In this document: piece after piece, positions 32,736 through 56,661 of the stretch | Position numbering within the stretch: the stretch's first letter is position 1 | Layout of the letters: every line of letters starts with the position of its first letter | Source: Trypanosoma brucei | Lineage: Eukaryota | Assembly (NCBI GenBank): GCA_000002445.1 | Contig: CM000207.1 | Span: forward strand, 1,248,001-1,312,000 | Length of the DNA stretch: 64,000 nt | Direction: 5' to 3' | Position numbers and translations under genes: made by a program | Notes under the pieces: model-generated | Seen by the model: the letters and a program-made list of their open reading frames with translations, nothing else | The model's database searches: none | What the model was told of the DNA's origin: nothing

Positions 32736-34361
32736 TTAACACACCAAAAGTTCGCAAATCACTGGTGGGTACGGTTCCCTCAGCCGGTCCGACTTACCAG
32801 GCGAAACTTGCGGTAGGGGCGGCCACAAGACACAACCCGGTGCTCGTGTATCACAGAGCTCTAAACCCCCATTCAGCGACACCCAACCCGTCCGCCACGG
32901 CACCAGTGTGAGTGTCAGCGTCGTCATTCCGTTCGGCTCAACAACACCCACGGGAACAGCCAGCGGCCCCGCATACACAAACGCTGGCGCCAGCAGCTCT
33001 GGCCGGACCCGCAATGCTAAATCAACGGTTTGTTGCGTGTGGTGGTTGACGATGGCACACTCAAACTTGACAGGGGTTCCCACTTGCGGTGACGTGGGCT
33101 CCATGTTGGTTACATGCAATTCCAACATCGGATGCCTGGGAAGCTCAAGCTGCACGACACCACTACCGTCTCTTCCACTGTCTCCATTTGGCCGCCTCCA
33201 GTCCCAAACCACGTAACCAACGTCGACAATCCGCGGTGCCACGGCACCTACTTGTTCGGCAAGAGGCATCTGTCCCAACATAAGGGAGCGCACCGCCTCT
33301 GGCCTCATGGTAAACTCAAAGAAATATCTACGTTTGTCCTTCGGACTCAGAAAAACGTCGTCTACTACCTCAATTCCACCGCTCAGGTGGCGCACATTGG
33401 CACCACTTATATCACATTCTTCCGCTTCCCCAGCGGAATTTGATTCGCTGTGCGGTCCCGTGGTCACTTGATTCGCCACTGCACTTTTAGAAGACGACAG
33501 TACTTGAAAAGTCTCCCCAACACGTAGCTCCACATTTTCCACAACAATCGGAACCGTTGCGACATTTTGCAGACATACTGTTAATGCATACCTCCTAGAT
33601 GGAAAAAAGGAATCCGATGACCCAACTGAGGCGCTCGGGCCCTTTTCTTGCAACTGCCTATCATTGTCACCACCTCTGCCAAACGACGCGGGGAGAAGAC
33701 GAAGTGACCGACGAACTTCAATTATCGCATGTTCAACCTCAATCGTCGATGCCCATGTCAGTCGTTTTTGCTCCTTGACAACATCAACACATGTGGCCAC
33801 CACGCTGAGGGTATACTGACCAGGGGATGAGAGGAGATGCTCTACAGTAAAGGAGACGTTTCCCCTGGCTTCAATTGCGGGGCACTCATGGTTTACGAGA
33901 GTCACGTGCCGCACGGATGGTGTGACGATATTAATTCGTATTACTGCTGTTGTTAGAGGATACGCTGCAGCGTTGTGGAAACTTAAGATCGCACGAAACG
34001 GTTGACCAACGAAGTGCTTACCGACTACGGACGGCAGCGAAAGAACGGAACTAACGCCTTGCATTGCCAGTCGTGCCGCCTCGCTTCGTCGCTGGGAAAC
34101 CAATGGATCGCCACTCTGTTTGACCGTCACCAGGGGATGGTGGAGCGGATTAGCGAGAACATCAAAAAGAATATCGCCTTCTTCCACTAGTTCTGGTAGG
34201 GACGACTGGGCCAATTCAGGTTTACGAAGTACTGCTGCCCTGACAGTGAGGGGGTTTGCCAAGATGGCGGGCATGTAATCAGTCGCTGAGAATACAGAAA
34301 CTCCCCCATCCTTTTCTCCCTTAGCCCCGTTGAAAGAGGGTGATACACCGTCTTTTGACAT
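32736..34361 (-). CDS. Hypothetical protein, 541 aa (orphan)
   Basis: Long ORF with balanced composition. No recognisable motif. Confidence 0.65.
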   Translation of the reverse strand: MSKDGVSPSFNGAKGEKDGGVSVFSATDYMPAILANPLTVRAAVLRKPELAQSSLPELVEEGDILFDVLANPLHHPLVTVKQSGDPLVSQRRSEAARLAMQGVSSVLSLPSVVGKHFVGQPFRAILSFHNAAAYPLTTAVIRINIVTPSVRHVTLVNHECPAIEARGNVSFTVEHLLSSPGQYTLSVVATCVDVVKEQKRLTWASTIEVEHAIIEVRRSLRLLPASFGRGGDNDRQLQEKGPSASVGSSDSFFPSRRYALTVCLQNVATVPIVVENVELRVGETFQVLSSSKSAVANQVTTGPHSESNSAGEAEECDISGANVRHLSGGIEVVDDVFLSPKDKRRYFFEFTMRPEAVRSLMLGQMPLAEQVGAVAPRIVDVGYVVWDWRRPNGDSGRDGSGVVQLELPRHPMLELHVTNMEPTSPQVGTPVKFECAIVNHHTQQTVDLALRVRPELLAPAFVYAGPLAVPVGVVEPNGMTTLTLTLVPWRTGWVSLNGGLELCDTRAPGCVLWPPLPQVSPGKSDRLREPYPPVICELLVC

Positions 34362-34808: not shown

Positions 34809-36539
34809 TTACCAATCGTCATCATCGTCGGTTTTACGTTTCGGCGGAAGTTTTCCGGGAGCCGGTGGTGGCGGTGGCGGAGGAGGAGGAGGAGGCGCAA
34901 CCTTTGGTGGCGGTCCCTTCGGCGGTGGCGCTTTCGGAGGGGGTGGTGGAGGTGGCGGTGGTGGAACTCCACCCTTTTGTGGGGGTGCCGGTGCGTTTCT
35001 GTTTATCGCCATACCCTTCGATGGTCCAGAGGCGGGAGGGCGCCTGCCATGATCGTCGTCTTCATCCTCACCGTCAGAGTGCATTCCCAATATCCCTTTG
35101 CGACGATTCGCAAGCAGAGAAGAAAGCGCATCAAGGTTGCTCTTCGTTGCTGGTTTAGGGGCCGGTTTAACATCCGATTTGGCGGCCGGCTTCGCGGGTG
35201 CCTTTGCTTGCCCGGGTGGTGGTGGTGGAGGAGGCGGGGGTGGAGCCGGTGGTGCATTACCAATTGGTAGTCCTTTCGTCGCAGCTGCTCCGGGTAATGA
35301 AGGCATGGGTGGTGGCGCTTTTATTGGTGGAGGGGGTGGCGCCTTCATTTTTCCCGCAAACATTGGTGGCGGCGGCGGGGGTGGTGGTGGCGCTTTACCG
35401 GGTGGTCGCAATCCACCTGGCGGTGGGGGTGGTGGTGGAAGCCCACTTGGCACGAGAGCACGTGAGGACGGGCCACCTGCTGCATCAGGACCTGCGGTAA
35501 TCGCCAATGCCTCCTGACCTTTCTTTTTATTTCGAGTCGACCCACTGCCACTTCCAACTGAATCACCCCTTTCCCCAAGCCGTCGCTGCCCGCTTGGCGC
35601 GATGTTGTCCTGGTCCTCCAAACTGTAGGCATTCCACGCAACCTCCGCAATGCCTTCAAGGGGCAAGTTTTCTGGGAGATCGTCCATCAGATTCGCCACC
35701 TCCTCCATCAGCGGGACGAAGGCGTATTCATCAGTCGACGCTTGGGTCACGTAATCGCGGTGCACATCTGATGTACCAAGTCGCTGCTTGGTGGCTACGA
35801 CACGCTCTTGCCGCTGTTGCGTCAGCACATCCATTTCATGGTACTCTTTGTAGAGGTTCTCCCTAGTATTAAATAATAATAGCGAGCTGACGCTCATGAG
35901 ATGTGCCGGTAGTCTCCCAAGGCCGCGATCCACACCACTATGATAGCGCCACGTCGCACCAAGCGGCATTAAGCTCTTAACTGTTGCCTCCTGCAATGGA
36001 TGCTGCGGTTTCATTAACCGCTGCTCTGCTCCAGGGCAATCAAGGCGACGGACGGGCTTCGGATATGCATCCTCCCCTTCCTGGCCTCCAAGCTGCCATG
36101 GGTCGGAGCCGTTGCCGCTATCGCCCCCGCTACTGCCCACCACTGGTGATGCACCCGAATCATCTGCTTGAATGATTGCTGGCATGACATACGCCCTTTC
36201 TGGCACACAGCCTCGATCCTCACACGGTGCGCGCCCTATTGGAAGCGTGTAGTGTTTTTGTTTTGGAAATCGAACCCTACTCTTCACCACCATCGCCTCC
36301 CTACGTCCTTGAAGCTGCTCGACTTGATCAGCACAAACCGCGATGCGTCCCTGAAGTTGCTCCAGTGTTTCGCGTGACCGCTCAACAGCCTGTTCAATGT
36401 TACCAAAGACACGTTCGCTTGTTTGATCAAGCCGCCCAAGAGCCCTGATGACGGACAGCATCGACGCATACCCACCATTTGTCAAGGGAACCGGCAGAGT
36501 ATACCCATGTATGGGTGTCATAGTGGTCTCCTTGTACAT
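34809..36539 (-). CDS. WASH-like nucleation-promoting factor (WASP/SCAR homolog family) with a poly-Pro region and a C-terminal VCA ending in Trp
   Basis: SVSSLLLFNTRENLYKEY matches the conserved WASH WAHD1 motif (human SSVSSLLLFNTTENLYKKY). Long PPPPPPPP tracts. LANRRKGILG (WH2-like) followed by an acidic DGEDEDDDH stretch and a terminal ...DDDDDW. Confidence 0.7.
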   Translation of the reverse strand: MYKETTMTPIHGYTLPVPLTNGGYASMLSVIRALGRLDQTSERVFGNIEQAVERSRETLEQLQGRIAVCADQVEQLQGRREAMVVKSRVRFPKQKHYTLPIGRAPCEDRGCVPERAYVMPAIIQADDSGASPVVGSSGGDSGNGSDPWQLGGQEGEDAYPKPVRRLDCPGAEQRLMKPQHPLQEATVKSLMPLGATWRYHSGVDRGLGRLPAHLMSVSSLLLFNTRENLYKEYHEMDVLTQQRQERVVATKQRLGTSDVHRDYVTQASTDEYAFVPLMEEVANLMDDLPENLPLEGIAEVAWNAYSLEDQDNIAPSGQRRLGERGDSVGSGSGSTRNKKKGQEALAITAGPDAAGGPSSRALVPSGLPPPPPPPGGLRPPGKAPPPPPPPPPMFAGKMKAPPPPPIKAPPPMPSLPGAAATKGLPIGNAPPAPPPPPPPPPPGQAKAPAKPAAKSDVKPAPKPATKSNLDALSSLLANRRKGILGMHSDGEDEDDDHGRRPPASGPSKGMAINRNAPAPPQKGGVPPPPPPPPPPKAPPPKGPPPKVAPPPPPPPPPPPAPGKLPPKRKTDDDDDW

Positions 36540-51538: not shown

Positions 51539-53200
51539 CTACGTCCACACTAATAAATCACGCACTTGCGTTGAATTCAAATGGCTTGTATGGTATGAAA
51601 CCCTCCGTGGTGAGGGTGTTTGGGGTTGGTATGTTTCGCCAAAGACTATATTTGATTTTGTCACATGCTGCCCAGCGACGCGACCCACGCCACTTCTAAT
51701 ACGAGGCGATACCAACACTCCAGCTGGGTCGTAGAAATTATCTCCTCCTCCTGGTGCCGATGTGGCGCTTATGTCTCCTTTGGTTGGTGTGTTGGCGGTG
51801 CAAACACATTGACGGCCGTCCCTATTGTCTTCACCTTCTGAGAAATGTATGGGCTCTCGGCTGCTGGACAAACCACGGGGACCAACTTCCGCTGGAGACT
51901 CATCGCCAAAAGGTGTTGTGCAGTGCCTCCGGTCTGGGGTACTTGTGACACCTGCGGCGGCTGGATAGTTATTTCTCGGAGAATACAATGGTGTGGCAGA
52001 TTGGCTCACAGCCGTCCTCCTCACGTCCAGATCAGTTCGCCCAACCAAGAAAGGTGAAAGAGAACGACAACGCTGCGTCGCTTCTTTACGGCGGCTCCGG
52101 ATACCAAAAATATCATGATCCAAATACCCTGGATGCCCCTGCATCGATTCTGTGACACGGGGAGGCCGCTTACGGGGAGGTAAGGTATGTACGGGTTGTG
52201 TGGCCTCAAATGCATCCACGCCCTTCCTCGTGCGGATGCATGGACGTGGTGTGGTGGCGGCACTCGACCGTTCCTTTACCACAAGATTTCCGCCAAGGTT
52301 ATCCCATCGGTACGTCGACAACTGGTAACGGACTCGGCGCCCGGGTGTGATCGGATTGTACTCCTGTTCGTCGGGTCTGAAAGGATGAAATGTGGCTCTC
52401 CTTTGTGCAACCGTGTTGGGACGCCGCCCCAGTGGTGTTGTTTTTCGGCGCCCCTCTTGGGAATAAATGAACCGCGCCAGACTTCCCAGTCCGTCATCGT
52501 GTTTTACTGCAGGTTGCTTTCGCACAGAAGGGGTTGGAGAGGTAAAATCAAAGATTCGGCTTTTATTCATTTGATTTATTTTTGCGGTATTAGCGCGCGC
52601 CCTGAAGGGGTTCAACTCGGGATCCACGCGATGTTGCATCTCATAGAGGTACCGCACATCCTCCTTTTGGGTCATATCTAATCGATAGGCGTCCGGTCGC
52701 ATGTCCTCTAACCGCGTGTTACATAACAACCTGGATAACAACTGACTGGTCGACATGTTCTCCAGAGAACCATTTGGTTCAGGGGTTGGGTTTCTGCGAT
52801 TACTTTTCCGGTCACCTGAGTTGCTGCGGTTACTTTTCCGGTCACCTGAGTTGCTGCGGTTACTCTTCCGTTCGTTACCAATATGGGATCCTTTACTTGG
52901 AGTAGATCGCTTGCCATCGGTCTTTATGGAGGAACGTCGGTGCTCTGTAGTTTGGTTCACGCCGGTATGAGCCGCTCGACGTGCCGACGATGCACCACTG
53001 GCAACCAAGTTTTTCCTTGTCGGCGTCCCGGACATATGTGCTTCAACTACTGAGGTAACAAGTTCTTTTAGTAAGTAGAAGATCGAAGGAATAGATGAAA
53101 TCACAGAGGATGGGAAATGGGGGTCAGGTTGTTGGTGATTGCACATGTATACGCCTGTATCTGTGTGTGACTTCGTTATGCTCGACACAAAGACCAACAA
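51539..53200 (-). CDS. Hypothetical Ser/Arg/Pro-rich protein with 3x SNRSNSGDRK decapeptide repeats
   Basis: 553 aa ORF. A 30-bp tandem repeat at 52800..52880 encodes the repeats. Basic and low complexity. The true start is possibly the internal Met (MSGTPTRKN). Confidence 0.6.
   Translation of the reverse strand: MLVFVSSITKSHTDTGVYMCNHQQPDPHFPSSVISSIPSIFYLLKELVTSVVEAHMSGTPTRKNLVASGASSARRAAHTGVNQTTEHRRSSIKTDGKRSTPSKGSHIGNERKSNRSNSGDRKSNRSNSGDRKSNRRNPTPEPNGSLENMSTSQLLSRLLCNTRLEDMRPDAYRLDMTQKEDVRYLYEMQHRVDPELNPFRARANTAKINQMNKSRIFDFTSPTPSVRKQPAVKHDDGLGSLARFIYSQEGRRKTTPLGRRPNTVAQRRATFHPFRPDEQEYNPITPGRRVRYQLSTYRWDNLGGNLVVKERSSAATTPRPCIRTRKGVDAFEATQPVHTLPPRKRPPRVTESMQGHPGYLDHDIFGIRSRRKEATQRCRSLSPFLVGRTDLDVRRTAVSQSATPLYSPRNNYPAAAGVTSTPDRRHCTTPFGDESPAEVGPRGLSSSREPIHFSEGEDNRDGRQCVCTANTPTKGDISATSAPGGGDNFYDPAGVLVSPRIRSGVGRVAGQHVTKSNIVFGETYQPQTPSPRRVSYHTSHLNSTQVRDLLVWT
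52800..52880. repeat. 30-bp tandem coding repeat (2.7 copies)
   Basis: ttacttttccggtcacctgagttgctgcgg occurs twice exactly, then a degenerate third copy. It encodes SNRSNSGDRK on the minus strand. Confidence 0.9.
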
Positions 53201-53343: not shown

Positions 53344-54789
53344 TCAAACGGAATTCCTGCGCCTTGACTTCTTCGCATTCCCACCACCCTCACCCGCGGG
53401 CACAATGCCTTCCCCTCTTTCTGCGACTAAGAATTGAAGCGCACAGCACGCACGGGTACATTGCTTCGGAAGCAATGCAGGAGGGTTCTCTTCACCGAAA
53501 TTACGCGACAAAGAGTGAAACACACCATGAGGTATACATTGCCGCACATGTTGGGAACCATTTGCTTCCTCAGCCGCCTCCATGTAACTCACCTGTTGAG
53601 TGTCGCCGCATCCCAGTAAACCACTGTCACCCACTACATTTCCGCAACTGGAACCTGTATCTGCCACAACACCAGTCGATCCACTGTTCTGAAGGGGACC
53701 GGAGCGTGGGTACTTCTCATTTGTGCCTTGGTGCGGCATCAGGGCAGTATCTACAGACGCACGGAGTGAAAGGGAACGCACATCCGCAGCGAGGCGCCTC
53801 TCGATTTGAATTGCATACGCGGCACCATAAGATCCGAAGCCAGCAGTGAAGACAGGGCGTGCCGGCTCAACATTTTCCACATTCACATACGTGGCCCTGC
53901 CCTCGGCGGAGGGTGACGTGTGCAGTGGGAGTGCCACATTCAACTCTGTTGTCTTTGTTGGGTTTGTAGATTCCTCCACCGAAGGTAGACCATCGCGAGC
54001 AACAGAGGGGAACTTGAGGCGAATACCAGTGTGCAGTCGTTTCGGCCTTCCCGATACATCGCACCACGAACCGTTCCACAACCACGAGGGAATTACCTTT
54101 GGAACAACAACAGGCCCACTGTAGTCCGCAATAAATGCAACCTCGTCTTGTACGTTCCACGCAAATCTTTGATACTCCATGTGACTGCAATTCACACTCC
54201 AGTGCTGCAGCTTTCTAAGTCCCATCACCACCAACCCCGTTGTGTGTCTACCATCAAGACAATGAATGTACAAGGGATGCTGTTCCGCATCCGCAAGCAT
54301 CTGTAAAACCTCGCTCATATCTGTGGGCATCAGTTGTGCCTCACCCTTATTCTGTTCTACTTGTATATGACGAATGGTGATGCCTTCAGCGGCGGCAAAC
54401 CTGGAGAGATCATAAGTAGGCTCCTCCGGAGTTAACGACACAATAGTGCGGAGCCCAAGACTGCGGAGAAACGGAAAATTCCGCAATGTGGGGTATGCAC
54501 CCCTGTAAACTCCTTCCTCCACGATGGCAAAGCGCAGTGGCGGTACAACATTCAGCAAAGCCGGGTCGAGTGTGCGAGAGACCATAATCTCACGCGATGA
54601 TTGTGACTCCTGTAATGGGGGCGAGTGAAGACTTTTCATTATAATTCCCGCAGACCCGCGAGCAAAACAGTACCGCGAGCACAAGCCCGAAGGGACAACA
54701 CGCAGCGTCCCTTTCGTCAATTTCAAAAAGCAAAAAAAAAGGAGGAGGGAAATAGAGAAAGAGAAGAAAAGGGAGGCAAACTGATACAT
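53344..54789 (-). CDS. Plant/fungal-type atypical dual-specificity phosphatase (PFA-DSP / Siw14-Oca family) homolog with a degenerate P-loop (HCLDGRHTTG)
   Basis: RFAIVEEGVYRGAYPTLRNFPFLRSLGLRTIVSLTPEEP and IHCLDGRHTTGLVVMGLRKLQHWSV...EYQRFA align to Tyr_phosphatase_2-family signatures, for example plant [29 protein letters not shown]. Cys is retained but the C-x5-R arginine is Thr. Confidence 0.7.
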   Translation of the reverse strand: MYQFASLFFSFSISLLLFFCFLKLTKGTLRVVPSGLCSRYCFARGSAGIIMKSLHSPPLQESQSSREIMVSRTLDPALLNVVPPLRFAIVEEGVYRGAYPTLRNFPFLRSLGLRTIVSLTPEEPTYDLSRFAAAEGITIRHIQVEQNKGEAQLMPTDMSEVLQMLADAEQHPLYIHCLDGRHTTGLVVMGLRKLQHWSVNCSHMEYQRFAWNVQDEVAFIADYSGPVVVPKVIPSWLWNGSWCDVSGRPKRLHTGIRLKFPSVARDGLPSVEESTNPTKTTELNVALPLHTSPSAEGRATYVNVENVEPARPVFTAGFGSYGAAYAIQIERRLAADVRSLSLRASVDTALMPHQGTNEKYPRSGPLQNSGSTGVVADTGSSCGNVVGDSGLLGCGDTQQVSYMEAAEEANGSQHVRQCIPHGVFHSLSRNFGEENPPALLPKQCTRACCALQFLVAERGEGIVPAGEGGGNAKKSRRRNSV

Positions 54790-55344: not shown

Positions 55345-56661
55345 TTACAATGCTGCTGTAAGTTTGTCAAGGCCGAGCATTCGGGTTGGAAGGGCCCAAA
55401 AGACGTACGCGACTAAAGCACCACCAGTTGCCGCTCCATGTTCCTCTGGCTTCGTGGTGAAAATGCGCCACACGTCAATAACCATCACAAAAGCAGTGAG
55501 AACTAGGAAAGGAACGGGCGGCTGTTGAATAAAGTTAAGGTGTCTGAAAATGATGCCCTCAACACCCACAAGACCGAGAATAAACGGATTGGGGCCATAA
55601 CATCGACCACGTACCTCCAGAGGATCCATTCCATAATACAACTCAAAGTTTTGGCGTGCAACATGAATAAGACCACCACCAAGTGTACAAAGGGACGCAA
55701 AGAAAGTCATTCGAGCATTGCCGAGAAACCCTAGCATCGTTTTTCCAAACTCCCAGAGAAGCCAGCAGTCAATCAAAAGCTGCAGAAGATTCTCTTGGTA
55801 GAGGGCATTGGTGAAAAAAGGATATATTCTCCCCGCATTTTCATGTGACAGCGTGAAATGTTCGACTATAAAGTCTCGCAGATCATCACTCCCAGAAAAG
55901 TTCATCAGGAAGTACGTGATGACGTTGGCGAGGAAAAGCAGCATCACAACATTGATCGTGTGGAATGGAGGAGGGAATGGTAAGTAACCGGCGCCGGCGT
56001 TACCACCAAACGGATCCTCTTGCTTCTGCTCTTCATCGCCACCTTTATCCCCTTCGTTCCGCTGCTGAACCTGATGGGTCCCAACGAGTTGACCGGAAGG
56101 TTTTTTCGGATCTCGCAGTACAGCACTGCTACAAAAAGTTCGACACGAATCCTTGTAAGCACCCGCGCCCATACGTACGTTTTGATTCCCTTGCATGCGG
56201 TACATCATCAAAAATGTGGACCTCGCCGGTCCCACGAGTGAAACGCCGTTGTCGCGGAGGAATCGGGCTGGAGCACCTGTCACTCGAGGGCCCCTCAATG
56301 TTTTAATTAAATGCATCGGCGAGTACCGTAACATCACACCGCCTTCGTCCTCTGAGTGTGCCGGATCGAAGGAGACTCCACAAAGAGAGGGCCGTGTGTG
56401 GTTTGTTGTTTTTTTTTCTTGTTTTGTTTTCCTGAGGAGGGGCTCACGAAACGAAAAAGAAAAAAAACAGGGAAGGGAAGGGAAGGGAAGAAGGATGGGA
56501 AAAAAAAAATAGGGGATGTTAGTGTACCAATACAACAATAAAAGGGCGCAACGAAACAAAAAAAATGCCCCTGAGCACGTGCTAAGGAACTCGCTGCGAC
56601 GTGCTGAGAGATCAACAAACAAAGCACCACTCAGGGTGTCTGTGGCGCCAAACAAACGCAA
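55345..56661 (-). CDS. Rhomboid-like polytopic membrane protein lacking the catalytic Ser (pseudoprotease; possibly a TimRhom-type protein). The first ~110 codons of the ORF are probably upstream T-rich read-through.
   Basis: HGAATGGALVAYVFW resembles the rhomboid TM6 AHLGGALFG motif. The TM4 GxSG position reads LGGGLIH (Gly in place of Ser). The likely start is MLRYSPMHLIKTLRGPR. Confidence 0.5.
   Translation of the reverse strand: MRLFGATDTLSGALFVDLSARRSEFLSTCSGAFFLFRCALLLLYWYTNIPYFFFPILLPFPSLPCFFSFSFREPLLRKTKQEKKTTNHTRPSLCGVSFDPAHSEDEGGVMLRYSPMHLIKTLRGPRVTGAPARFLRDNGVSLVGPARSTFLMMYRMQGNQNVRMGAGAYKDSCRTFCSSAVLRDPKKPSGQLVGTHQVQQRNEGDKGGDEEQKQEDPFGGNAGAGYLPFPPPFHTINVVMLLFLANVITYFLMNFSGSDDLRDFIVEHFTLSHENAGRIYPFFTNALYQENLLQLLIDCWLLWEFGKTMLGFLGNARMTFFASLCTLGGGLIHVARQNFELYYGMDPLEVRGRCYGPNPFILGLVGVEGIIFRHLNFIQQPPVPFLVLTAFVMVIDVWRIFTTKPEEHGAATGGALVAYVFWALPTRMLGLDKLTAAL
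56471..56492. repeat. (GGAAG)4 pentanucleotide repeat
   Basis: Direct reading of the sequence. Confidence 0.9.

What the first reader, a model, noticed from the sequence alone, without database searches (positions are those of the whole stretch)
53344..54789. PFA-DSP/Siw14-family phosphatase homolog with a degenerate P-loop (CLDGRHT instead of CKRGKHR)
The protein aligns well to plant/fungal atypical DSPs (the inositol-pyrophosphate phosphatases): the RNFxFLxxLGL region and IHC...TG...LRKLQxW...EYQRFA. The catalytic Cys is present, but the invariant Arg of the C-x5-R loop is Thr and the two flanking basic residues are Leu/Asp. This predicts loss or strong alteration of phosphatase activity, making it a likely pseudophosphatase or a changed substrate specificity. 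It also has a ~250 aa C-terminal extension absent from canonical family members.
Basis: partly seen in the sequence, partly recalled or inferred. Interest (0 to 1): 0.5.

Follow-up and report, generated by a model that had tools for sequence, protein, structure and literature searches.

The report
Known trypanosome OCA6-type dead phosphatase
This is an already annotated Trypanosoma brucei gene whose missing catalytic arginine was published in 2007; it belongs to an ancient family of probably inactive relatives of the Siw14 inositol-pyrophosphate phosphatases, so the finding is correct but ordinary.

Summary
ORF 53344..54789 (-) is 100% identical to T. brucei TREU927 XP_827160/Q38EE0, old ID Tb09.211.0210. 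It has a PF03162 domain (E=1e-47). HMMER aligns its IHCLDGRHTTG loop with [11 protein letters not shown] of AtPFA-DSP1 and Siw14, so Cys is kept and the CX5R Arg is Thr.

It is not new. Brenchley et al. 2007 (TriTryp phosphatome, Table S4) list Tb09.211.0210 with P-loop IHCLDGRHTT in a group that lacks the catalytic Arg. The same table lists a canonical paralog, Tb09.v1.0350 (IHCNKGKHRT, later TbPTP3).

The loop is also not a local degeneration. Among 115 homologs from kinetoplastids, oomycetes, Amoebozoa, early-diverging fungi and streptophytes, H, C, D and G of H-C-L-D-G are each kept in at least 114 and L in 111, and none has Arg at the CX5R position. Sources name several of these proteins OCA6. 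This matches the OCA clade, the predicted-pseudophosphatase sister clade of the PFA-DSPs.

Additions from this work:
- The true start is probably M51, giving 431 aa.
- The roughly 220-aa C-terminal tail is predicted disordered.
- The tail ends in a kinetoplastid-conserved RRRNSV-COOH motif, which bound Tb14-3-3 when grafted onto PP2C (Inoue 2010).

No activity data exist for this protein. Interest is low.

The parts
53344..54789 (-). Full ORF as annotated in T. brucei TREU927 (481 aa plus stop); XP_827160 / Q38EE0 / old ID Tb09.211.0210
   Evidence: ORF listing. 100% identity over 100% of the query to P0001. Accessions. The old ID is linked to Q38EE0 in Brenchley 2007 supplementary file 1.
53344..54639 (-). 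Probable real coding sequence (431 aa plus stop), starting at M51 = ATG 54639
   Evidence: Five of the six other Trypanosoma orthologs and the 431-aa T. b. equiperdum annotation begin at this Met; T. melophagium has its own longer N-terminus. The upstream 50 codons overlap a polypyrimidine tract. This is an inference and has not been checked against spliced-leader mapping.
54732..54776 (-). Polypyrimidine tract of 45 nt with one purine, followed by the first AG at 54712/54711; a candidate trans-splice acceptor 72 nt upstream of ATG 54639
   Evidence: Sequence scan and sequence read. The function is inferred from the general architecture of trypanosome trans-splice sites (established knowledge).
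54073..54549 (-). PF03162 (Y_phosphatase2 / Siw14-like) CC1-fold domain, aa 81-239
   Evidence: Pfam E=1e-47. AF2 pLDDT is 87-98 over aa 81-260 in 481-aa numbering. Foldseek against AtPFA-DSP1 gives rmsd 1.3-1.5 A over about 148 columns with TM (target) 0.83-0.90, and against Siw14 rmsd 1.4 A.
54235..54264 (-). P-loop HCLDGRHTTG (H176-G185): Cys177 retained, Thr183 in place of the CX5R Arg, Leu178/Asp179 in place of the basic cleft residues
   Evidence: Translation, HMMER alignment to 7mok/1xri/6byf and clade statistics.
53347..54003 (-). C-terminal tail (aa 263-481), predicted disordered, with short blocks conserved within Trypanosoma (AYVDVENV, AADVRxLSLRAS)
   Evidence: AF2 block-mean pLDDT is about 34-60, mostly below 50, over 431-aa residues 231-431. 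Ortholog alignment A1. The tail is 43% S/T/P/G/A.
53347..53364 (-). C-terminal RRRNSV-COOH: a basophilic Ser site and a 14-3-3 mode-III-type motif
   Evidence: Translation. A basic cluster plus Ser within the last 2-6 residues is seen in about 20 of the first 25 hits, which are kinetoplastid or kinetoplastid-like. Inoue 2010 (PMC3006207) reports that a PP2C chimera ending in -RRRNSV from Tb09.211.0210 bound GST-Tb14-3-3 more tightly than wild type in a far-western assay.

Best explanation
The gene is the T. brucei ortholog of an ancient, eukaryote-wide OCA6-like subfamily of the Siw14/PFA-DSP (PF03162) phosphatase fold. It is the already annotated Tb09.211.0210, an 'atypical DSP'.

Shown here: it keeps the fold, the His-Cys pair and the loop Gly. 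It lacks the CX5R arginine and carries Leu-Asp where the active enzymes carry two basic cleft residues.

Inferred: the protein most likely cannot hydrolyse inositol pyrophosphates or phospho-esters by the canonical mechanism. It probably acts as a non-catalytic regulatory or scaffolding partner, possibly of the active paralog TbPTP3 (Tb09.v1.0350), as proposed for the yeast OCA proteins. Its long disordered tail may provide regulation through phosphorylation of the terminal RRRNSV motif and 14-3-3 binding.
For: - **Identity.** The ORF is 100% identical to XP_827160/Q38EE0. [quoted passage not shown]
- **Fold.** Pfam E=1e-47. The AF2 domain has pLDDT above 90 and superposes on AtPFA-DSP1 at 1.3-1.5 A.
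- **Loop alignment.** The alignment to the solved enzymes has no gaps in the loop region.
- **Clade signature.** In 115 homologs the counts are H 115, C 114, L 111, D 114 and G 115. The CX5R position is V 94, I 13, T 4, N 3, A 1 and never Arg. The taxa span kinetoplastids, oomycetes, Amoebozoa, chytrids, Mucoromycota, Mesostigma and Selaginella. An NJ tree recovers these major groups, which fits vertical inheritance.
- **OCA6 link.** Several hits are named OCA6 by their sources. Database OCA6 orthologs from yeasts score 115-153 bits against a Mucor HCLDG protein and 58-77 bits against the Siw14 and AtPFA-DSP1 fragments. Their loops form a series: HCLDG, HCLNG (Wickerhamomyces), HC(T/S)NG (Saccharomycetaceae).
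- **Mechanistic basis.** Siw14 loses activity when C214, G217 or R220 is mutated, and R216 and K218 contribute to efficiency. The OCA clade is described as predicted pseudophosphatases whose members interact with each other. Recombinant ScOca1 is inactive on pNPP, OMFP and a phosphoinositide (review PMC13573052).
- **Charge.** Over the span aligned to AtPFA-DSP1, the T. brucei protein has 12 K+R and 14 D+E, against 17 and 11 in AtPFA-DSP1.
- **Tail.** It is predicted disordered. The terminal motif is conserved, and a chimera carrying it bound 14-3-3.
Against: - No enzymatic, interaction or knock-down data for this protein were found.
- Near-invariance of H-C-L-D-G over more than a billion years is more than a pure scaffold would need, and it hints at a function that uses the loop and the Cys.
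- Kinetoplastid members keep Arg181 and His182, equivalent to Siw14 K218 and H219, so some anion binding or residual activity cannot be excluded.
- Orthology to ScOca6 specifically was not resolved.
- 14-3-3 binding was shown only for a heterologous chimera in a far-western assay.
Confidence: 0.7

Rival explanations
1. The protein is an active Cys-dependent enzyme with different chemistry or a different substrate. The conserved His-Cys-Leu-Asp-Gly loop would be a working active site, or a redox-sensing thiol, rather than a dead one.
For: H, C, D and G of the loop are kept in 114-115 of 115 homologs across eukaryotic supergroups, and L in 111, making it one of the most conserved segments of the protein. 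Archetypal dead phosphatases such as STYX replace the Cys (Brenchley 2007), whereas here it is retained. Kinetoplastid loops keep Arg181 and His182, and the equivalent His acts as general base in AtPFA-DSP1. The catalytic Cys of PFA-DSPs is redox sensitive, and yeast OCA genes were found through oxidant-response phenotypes.
Against: The Arg that binds the phosphate and stabilises the thiophosphate intermediate is absent in every member, and its loss abolishes activity in Siw14. Asp179 puts a negative charge in the cleft. No activity has been reported for any OCA-clade protein, and ScOca1 was inactive on three substrates.
Confidence: 0.22
2. It is a conventional, active PFA-DSP/Siw14-type inositol-pyrophosphate phosphatase, and the apparent loss of Arg is an alignment or sequence artefact.
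For: There is strong overall similarity to AtPFA-DSP1 and Siw14.
Against: The alignment has no gaps in the loop region, and no Arg lies at or next to the CX5R position. The same loop occurs in T. b. gambiense and equiperdum, T. congolense, T. vivax, T. cruzi, Leishmania and Bodo. T. brucei has a separate canonical gene with IHCNKGKHRT.
Confidence: 0.03
3. It is a decaying pseudogene or a mis-annotated ORF with no protein product.
For: The first 50 codons look like translated 5' UTR or intergenic polypyrimidine sequence.
Against: From M51 the ORF is intact. The domain is highly conserved across Trypanosoma, with 113 invariant columns in alignment A1. Conserved blocks and a conserved C-terminal motif persist in the tail. 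Orthologs are present across kinetoplastids and beyond.
Confidence: 0.02

Closest known systems
OCA clade of the PFA-DSP family, specifically Oca6-type proteins (S. cerevisiae Oca6/YDR067C and its homologs)
   Same: It shares the PF03162 CC1 fold. Cys is retained and the CX5R Arg is absent (ScOca6 HCTNGELI against Tb HCLDGRHT). It shares the (I/V)PxW(L/I)W motif after the domain (alignment). Database OCA6 orthologs hit HCLDG-clade proteins best, and sources name several close homologs OCA6. The clade is described as predicted pseudophosphatases with protist members.
   Different: The kinetoplastid loop is closer to the active enzymes at positions x4 and x5 (Arg-His) than yeast Oca6 (Glu-Leu). 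It has a disordered tail of about 220 aa ending in a basic-Ser motif, whereas yeast Oca6 has 224 aa in all. Strict orthology against Oca1, Oca2 and Oca4 was not resolved here.
Active PFA-DSPs: S. cerevisiae Siw14 (6BYF) and A. thaliana PFA-DSP1 (1XRI, 7MOD-7MOM)
   Same: The fold is the same (rmsd 1.3-1.5 A). Identity in structural alignments is 31-37%. Shared motifs are RNFxFL, HC..G.H.TG, LRKLQxW and EYQRF.
   Different: The catalytic Arg is missing (Thr183) and the cleft residues K/N-R are replaced by L-D. Net charge over the aligned span is about -2 against +6. It also has a long disordered C-terminal tail. It is predicted not to hydrolyse PP-InsPs.
TbPTP3 (Tb09.v1.0350), the canonical Siw14-like paralog in T. 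brucei
   Same: It is from the same genome and chromosome, belongs to the same InterPro SIW14-like family (IPR004861) and appears in the same Brenchley 2007 table. It was named TbPTP3 in Szoor 2010.
   Different: TbPTP3 has the complete IHCNKGKHRT loop. It is not in this window. Its sequence could not be retrieved for direct comparison.
STYX-type pseudophosphatases
   Same: Both are DSP-fold proteins predicted to be catalytically dead and to act through binding rather than catalysis.
   Different: STYX proteins lose the nucleophilic Cys and keep the Arg. Here the Cys is kept and the Arg is lost.

Membership tests
PF03162 / SIW14-like CC1-fold phosphatase superfamily | Significant match to the family profile | tested here: met
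   Pfam PF03162 E=1e-47, 162 bits against a cut-off of 27, aa 81-239 covering profile positions 1-162 of 165.
PF03162 / SIW14-like CC1-fold phosphatase superfamily | DSP-like CC1 fold | tested here: met
   The AF2 domain has pLDDT 87-98. Foldseek top hits are AtPFA-DSP1 and Siw14, with TM (target) 0.80-0.90 and rmsd 1.3-1.8 A.
Catalytically competent PFA-DSP (Siw14 / AtPFA-DSP1 type) | His-Cys pair and loop Gly of HCxxGxHR | tested here: met
   H176, C177, G180 and H182 align with the canonical residues.
Catalytically competent PFA-DSP (Siw14 / AtPFA-DSP1 type) | Arg of the CX5R motif (Siw14 R220) | tested here: not met
   Thr183 occupies the position in an alignment with no gaps in the loop region. 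No Arg is found at this position in any of 115 clade members.
Catalytically competent PFA-DSP (Siw14 / AtPFA-DSP1 type) | Basic cleft residues at loop positions x1/x2 (K/N-R) | tested here: not met
   Leu178-Asp179 occupy these positions, and they are conserved as L-D in at least 111 of 115 members.
Catalytically competent PFA-DSP (Siw14 / AtPFA-DSP1 type) | Hydrolysis of the beta-phosphate of 5-InsP7 | not testable with these tools
   This requires recombinant protein and an enzyme assay.
OCA clade (predicted pseudophosphatases), Oca6-like | PFA-DSP-like fold with substitutions in the HCxxGxHR active site | tested here: met
   The clade definition is taken from review PMC13573052.
OCA clade (predicted pseudophosphatases), Oca6-like | Closer to Oca6 proteins than to active PFA-DSPs | tested here: inconclusive
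   Yeast OCA6 orthologs hit HCLDG-clade proteins at 90-153 bits against 58-77 bits for the Siw14 and AtPFA-DSP1 fragments. The T. brucei domain itself scores 79-98 bits with them, about the same as its 95 bits with AtPFA-DSP1. Sources name homologs OCA6. The NJ tree does not resolve the position of the yeast group. Oca1, Oca2 and Oca4 were not included.
OCA clade (predicted pseudophosphatases), Oca6-like | Physical or genetic interaction with Siw14 and other OCA proteins | not testable with these tools
   This is reported for yeast only. No T. brucei data were found.
STYX-type pseudophosphatase | Replacement of the catalytic Cys (typically by Gly or Ser) with the Arg retained | tested here: not met
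   Cys177 is present and the Arg is absent. The T. brucei STYX is a different gene, Tb10.70.6300.
14-3-3 mode III client | C-terminal p(S/T)-x(1-2)-COOH preceded by a basic cluster | tested here: met
   The protein ends in ...KKSRRRNSV-COOH, and the motif is conserved in kinetoplastid orthologs. Binding was shown only for a PP2C chimera by far-western (PMC3006207). Phosphorylation and binding in vivo were not tested.

The most novel reading that the evidence does not exclude
The HCLDGxxx(T/S)G loop may be a functional site of unknown chemistry or a regulatory thiol, rather than a dead relic. It has been conserved since early eukaryotic evolution in the OCA6-like clade, and in kinetoplastids it is coupled to a phospho- and 14-3-3-regulated disordered tail. 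The T. brucei protein would then be a tractable entry point to the unknown function of the whole OCA clade and its link to inositol-pyrophosphate signalling.
Probability: 0.15. Interest if true: 0.55.

Novelty: already known. Interest (0 to 1): 0.15.

Why it matters
The practical value is limited. The gene is annotated, its Arg-less P-loop was tabulated in 2007, and the class (OCA-clade predicted pseudophosphatases) is described in reviews. What remains open is biological: nobody knows what OCA6-type proteins do. The near-invariance of His-Cys-Leu-Asp-Gly across eukaryotic supergroups says the loop is still under selection. T. brucei makes inositol pyrophosphates linked to polyphosphate synthesis (Cordeiro 2017, seen only as a reference title). 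It also has a small set of four SIW14-like genes, two with a CX5R Arg (one of them the canonical Siw14-like loop) and two without. That makes it a reasonable system for testing whether such proteins regulate the active phosphatase.

Tried and rejected
- **Canonical paralog in the window.** A six-frame scan for C-x5-R-(S/T) found nothing resembling HCNKGKHRT, so the paralog is not in the window.
- **Retrieving TbPTP3.** The paralog therefore rests on the literature only.
- **Literature search for 'HCLDG'.** It returned only unrelated matches.
- **Search for a current Tb927.9 gene ID** together with 'atypical dual specificity phosphatase' gave no papers.
- **Phosphoproteome check.** The supplements of Nett 2009 are not held, so phosphorylation of the tail could not be checked.
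- **Roma-Mateo 2011**, the primary OCA phylogeny, is not held.
- **Trees.** The first bootstrap attempt timed out. The faster NJ tree recovers the major taxa but leaves the yeast OCA6 group unresolved.
- **ScOca6 probe.** The probe sequence was written from memory and used only to fish out database proteins. All conclusions use the returned sequences.
- **Genomic context.** It was rejected as functional evidence. The neighbours are unrelated housekeeping genes in one trypanosome polycistron.
- **Rejected readings.** Pseudogene and alignment-artefact explanations were rejected; see the rival explanations.

Full report
**What is there.** The window is Trypanosoma brucei brucei TREU927 DNA. The 481-aa ORF at 53344..54789 on the minus strand is 100% identical over its full length to XP_827160 / EAN76830 / UniProt Q38EE0, which sits on a 3,057,547-bp contig. 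NCBI calls it 'hypothetical protein, conserved' and UniRef calls it 'Tyrosine phosphatase'. The T. b. equiperdum ortholog is named 'atypical dual specificity phosphatase' and the T. b. gambiense ortholog 'tyrosine phosphatase, putative'. In Brenchley et al. 2007, Q38EE0 is the old gene ID Tb09.211.0210, classed 'aDSP', 481 aa, with InterPro IPR004861 (SIW14-like).

**Check of the observation.** Pfam PF03162 (Y_phosphatase2) matches aa 81-239 at E=1e-47. The closest solved proteins are A. thaliana PFA-DSP1 (E=2.5e-26) and S. cerevisiae Siw14 (E=6.7e-19). HMMER aligns IHCLDGRHTTG with [11 protein letters not shown] with no gap in the loop region.
- Cys177, Gly180 and His182 are retained.
- Leu178-Asp179 replace the two basic cleft residues.
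- Arg181 replaces Lys.
- Thr183 replaces the CX5R arginine.

An AlphaFold2 model built from a 64-sequence alignment gives pLDDT of mostly 90-98 (one 10-residue block at 87) for the domain.

**It is already published.** Table S4 of 'The TriTryp Phosphatome' (Brenchley et al. 2007, PMC2175518) lists Tb09.211.0210 with P-loop IHCLDGRHTT and its L. major ortholog LmjF04.0840 with IHCLDGRHVT as group 5. Tb09.v1.0350 has IHCNKGKHRT (group 1) and was later named TbPTP3 (Szoor 2010, PMC2994645). Tb11.03.0500 has LTCSMGRYRT, and Tb11.01.5870 has FTCPTGELQT, also without the Arg. T. brucei therefore carries four SIW14-like genes, two with and two without a CX5R arginine. The canonical paralog is not in this window.

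**The loop is a clade signature, not local decay.** Among the 120 best homologs, 115 could be scored automatically. The loop reads H (115), C (114), L (111), D (114), G (115), x, x, then V/I/T/N/A (94/13/4/3/1), T/V, G. No member has Arg at the CX5R position. These proteins come from kinetoplastids including Bodo, oomycetes, Plasmodiophora, Amoebozoa, Willaertia, Anaeramoeba, chytrids, Mucoromycota, Mesostigma and Selaginella.

A neighbour-joining tree on 171 domain columns recovers several of these taxonomic groups, with bootstrap values of:
- kinetoplastids 100%
- oomycetes 100%
- streptophytes 94%
- three of the Amoebozoa 86%
- Mucoromycota 88%

This fits a single old orthologous group inherited vertically.

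Several members are named OCA6 by JGI or NCBI. A 2026 review (PMC13573052) describes the OCA clade as the sister clade of the PFA-DSPs. [quoted passage not shown] Using a remembered ScOca6 sequence only as a probe, I retrieved database OCA6 orthologs from Saccharomycetaceae and relatives. These score 115-153 bits with a Mucor HCLDG protein and 58-77 bits with the Siw14 and AtPFA-DSP1 fragments. Their loops form a graded series: HCLDG (an unnamed relative), HCLNG (Wickerhamomyces), then HC(T/S/H)NG (Saccharomycetaceae). They also share the (I/V)PxW(L/I)W motif that follows the domain in the HCLDG clade (alignment printed).

I conclude that the T. brucei protein is an OCA6-like member, with a caveat. 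The yeast group sits on a long branch that the NJ tree does not place (33-44% support), and Oca1, Oca2 and Oca4 were not available for a full test.

**How it most likely works.** The review summarises the Siw14 mutational data. C214, G217 and R220 are each required for activity, R216 and K218 contribute to efficiency, and the His equivalent to H219 serves as general base in AtPFA-DSP1. The T. brucei protein lacks R220 and has Asp at the R216 position. Over the span aligned to AtPFA-DSP1 its K+R/D+E count is 12/14 against 17/11, so the strongly basic cleft needed for inositol pyrophosphates is gone.

The inference is that it does not hydrolyse PP-InsPs or phospho-esters by the canonical route. 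It would act by binding, for example as a regulatory partner of the active paralog. This is what has been proposed for the yeast OCA proteins, which co-purify with each other and share phenotypes with siw14 mutants. None of this has been tested in trypanosomes.

One point argues against a purely passive scaffold. The loop, including the nucleophilic Cys, is among the most conserved parts of the protein across eukaryotes. I keep an 'active but different chemistry, or redox-sensing thiol' reading at about 0.2.

- *Start codon.* The first 50 codons translate a 45-nt polypyrimidine tract (54732-54776), which is followed by an AG at 54712/11. Most Trypanosoma orthologs and the 431-aa T. b. equiperdum annotation begin at M51 (ATG 54639). 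The real protein is therefore probably 431 aa.
- *C-terminal tail.* The C-terminal extension (aa 263-481) is predicted disordered, with pLDDT mostly below 50. It contains short blocks conserved within Trypanosoma. Tail length varies widely across the clade: Leishmania-type orthologs are about 700-800 aa, and many others are 265-500 aa. An extension is therefore not unusual in this clade.
- *Terminal motif.* The extreme C-terminus KKSRRRNSV-COOH is conserved as a basic cluster plus Ser in about 20 of the first 25 hits, which are kinetoplastid or kinetoplastid-like. Inoue et al. 2010 (PMC3006207) selected this sequence as a putative 14-3-3 mode III and AGC-kinase motif. [quoted passage not shown]

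**Context.** All ORFs of 250 aa or more in the window lie on the minus strand, as expected for one polycistronic unit. The neighbours are functionally unrelated: TRAPPC13, a WASH-complex WAHD protein, DnaJ/TMEM185, pescadillo, peptide deformylase and a rhomboid. Gene order in trypanosome polycistrons carries no functional inference.

**Verdict.** However, the gene, its Arg-less loop and the existence of a canonical paralog have been in the literature since 2007, and the protein class is a described one. Novelty is 'already known' and interest is low (0.15). The residual open question is what the invariant HCLDG loop of OCA6-type proteins is for. It is real, but it belongs to the whole clade and not to this locus.

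Noticed in passing
window 1-24300: There is a tandem array of at least four units of about 5.75 kb (start-to-start spacings 5788, 5758, 5741 and 5753). It is A+T-rich (GC 0.35-0.39, against 0.44-0.54 in most of the window downstream of the array). Each unit carries two minus-strand ORFs of about 280-370 aa with no Pfam match. Two of the ORFs match XP_827133 and XP_827140 exactly; XP_827133, and the T. b. gambiense member of XP_827140's cluster, are named 'T. brucei spp.-specific protein'.
   Followed up: partly
window 54640-54789 (-): The first 50 codons of the annotated 481-aa ORF encode a hydrophobic, Phe/Leu/Ser-rich peptide. This is simply a translated polypyrimidine tract upstream of a candidate splice-acceptor AG. 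The TREU927 gene model is probably 50 codons too long at its 5' end.
   Followed up: yes
homologs P0035-P0119 (not in the window): Non-kinetoplastid HCLDG/OCA6-like proteins from oomycetes, Mucoromycota and chytrids very often end in a shared C-terminal motif, such as LEALALEGL, LKALALEGADF or ALDLAG(V/I). Kinetoplastid orthologs instead end in a basic cluster plus Ser. Either could be a docking motif for an unknown partner.
   Followed up: no
window 55345-56661 (-) and 51539-53200 (-): The immediate neighbours are a rhomboid-domain protein (PF01694, E=1.7e-5) upstream and a 553-aa low-complexity ORF downstream. The latter has no Pfam match and contains a repeated 'SGDRKSNRSN' stretch.
   Followed up: no
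window 34809-36539 (-) and 32736-34361 (-): A WASH-complex WAHD-domain protein (E=1.5e-30) and a TRAPPC13 homolog lie next to each other. Both are ordinary conserved trafficking genes.
   Followed up: no
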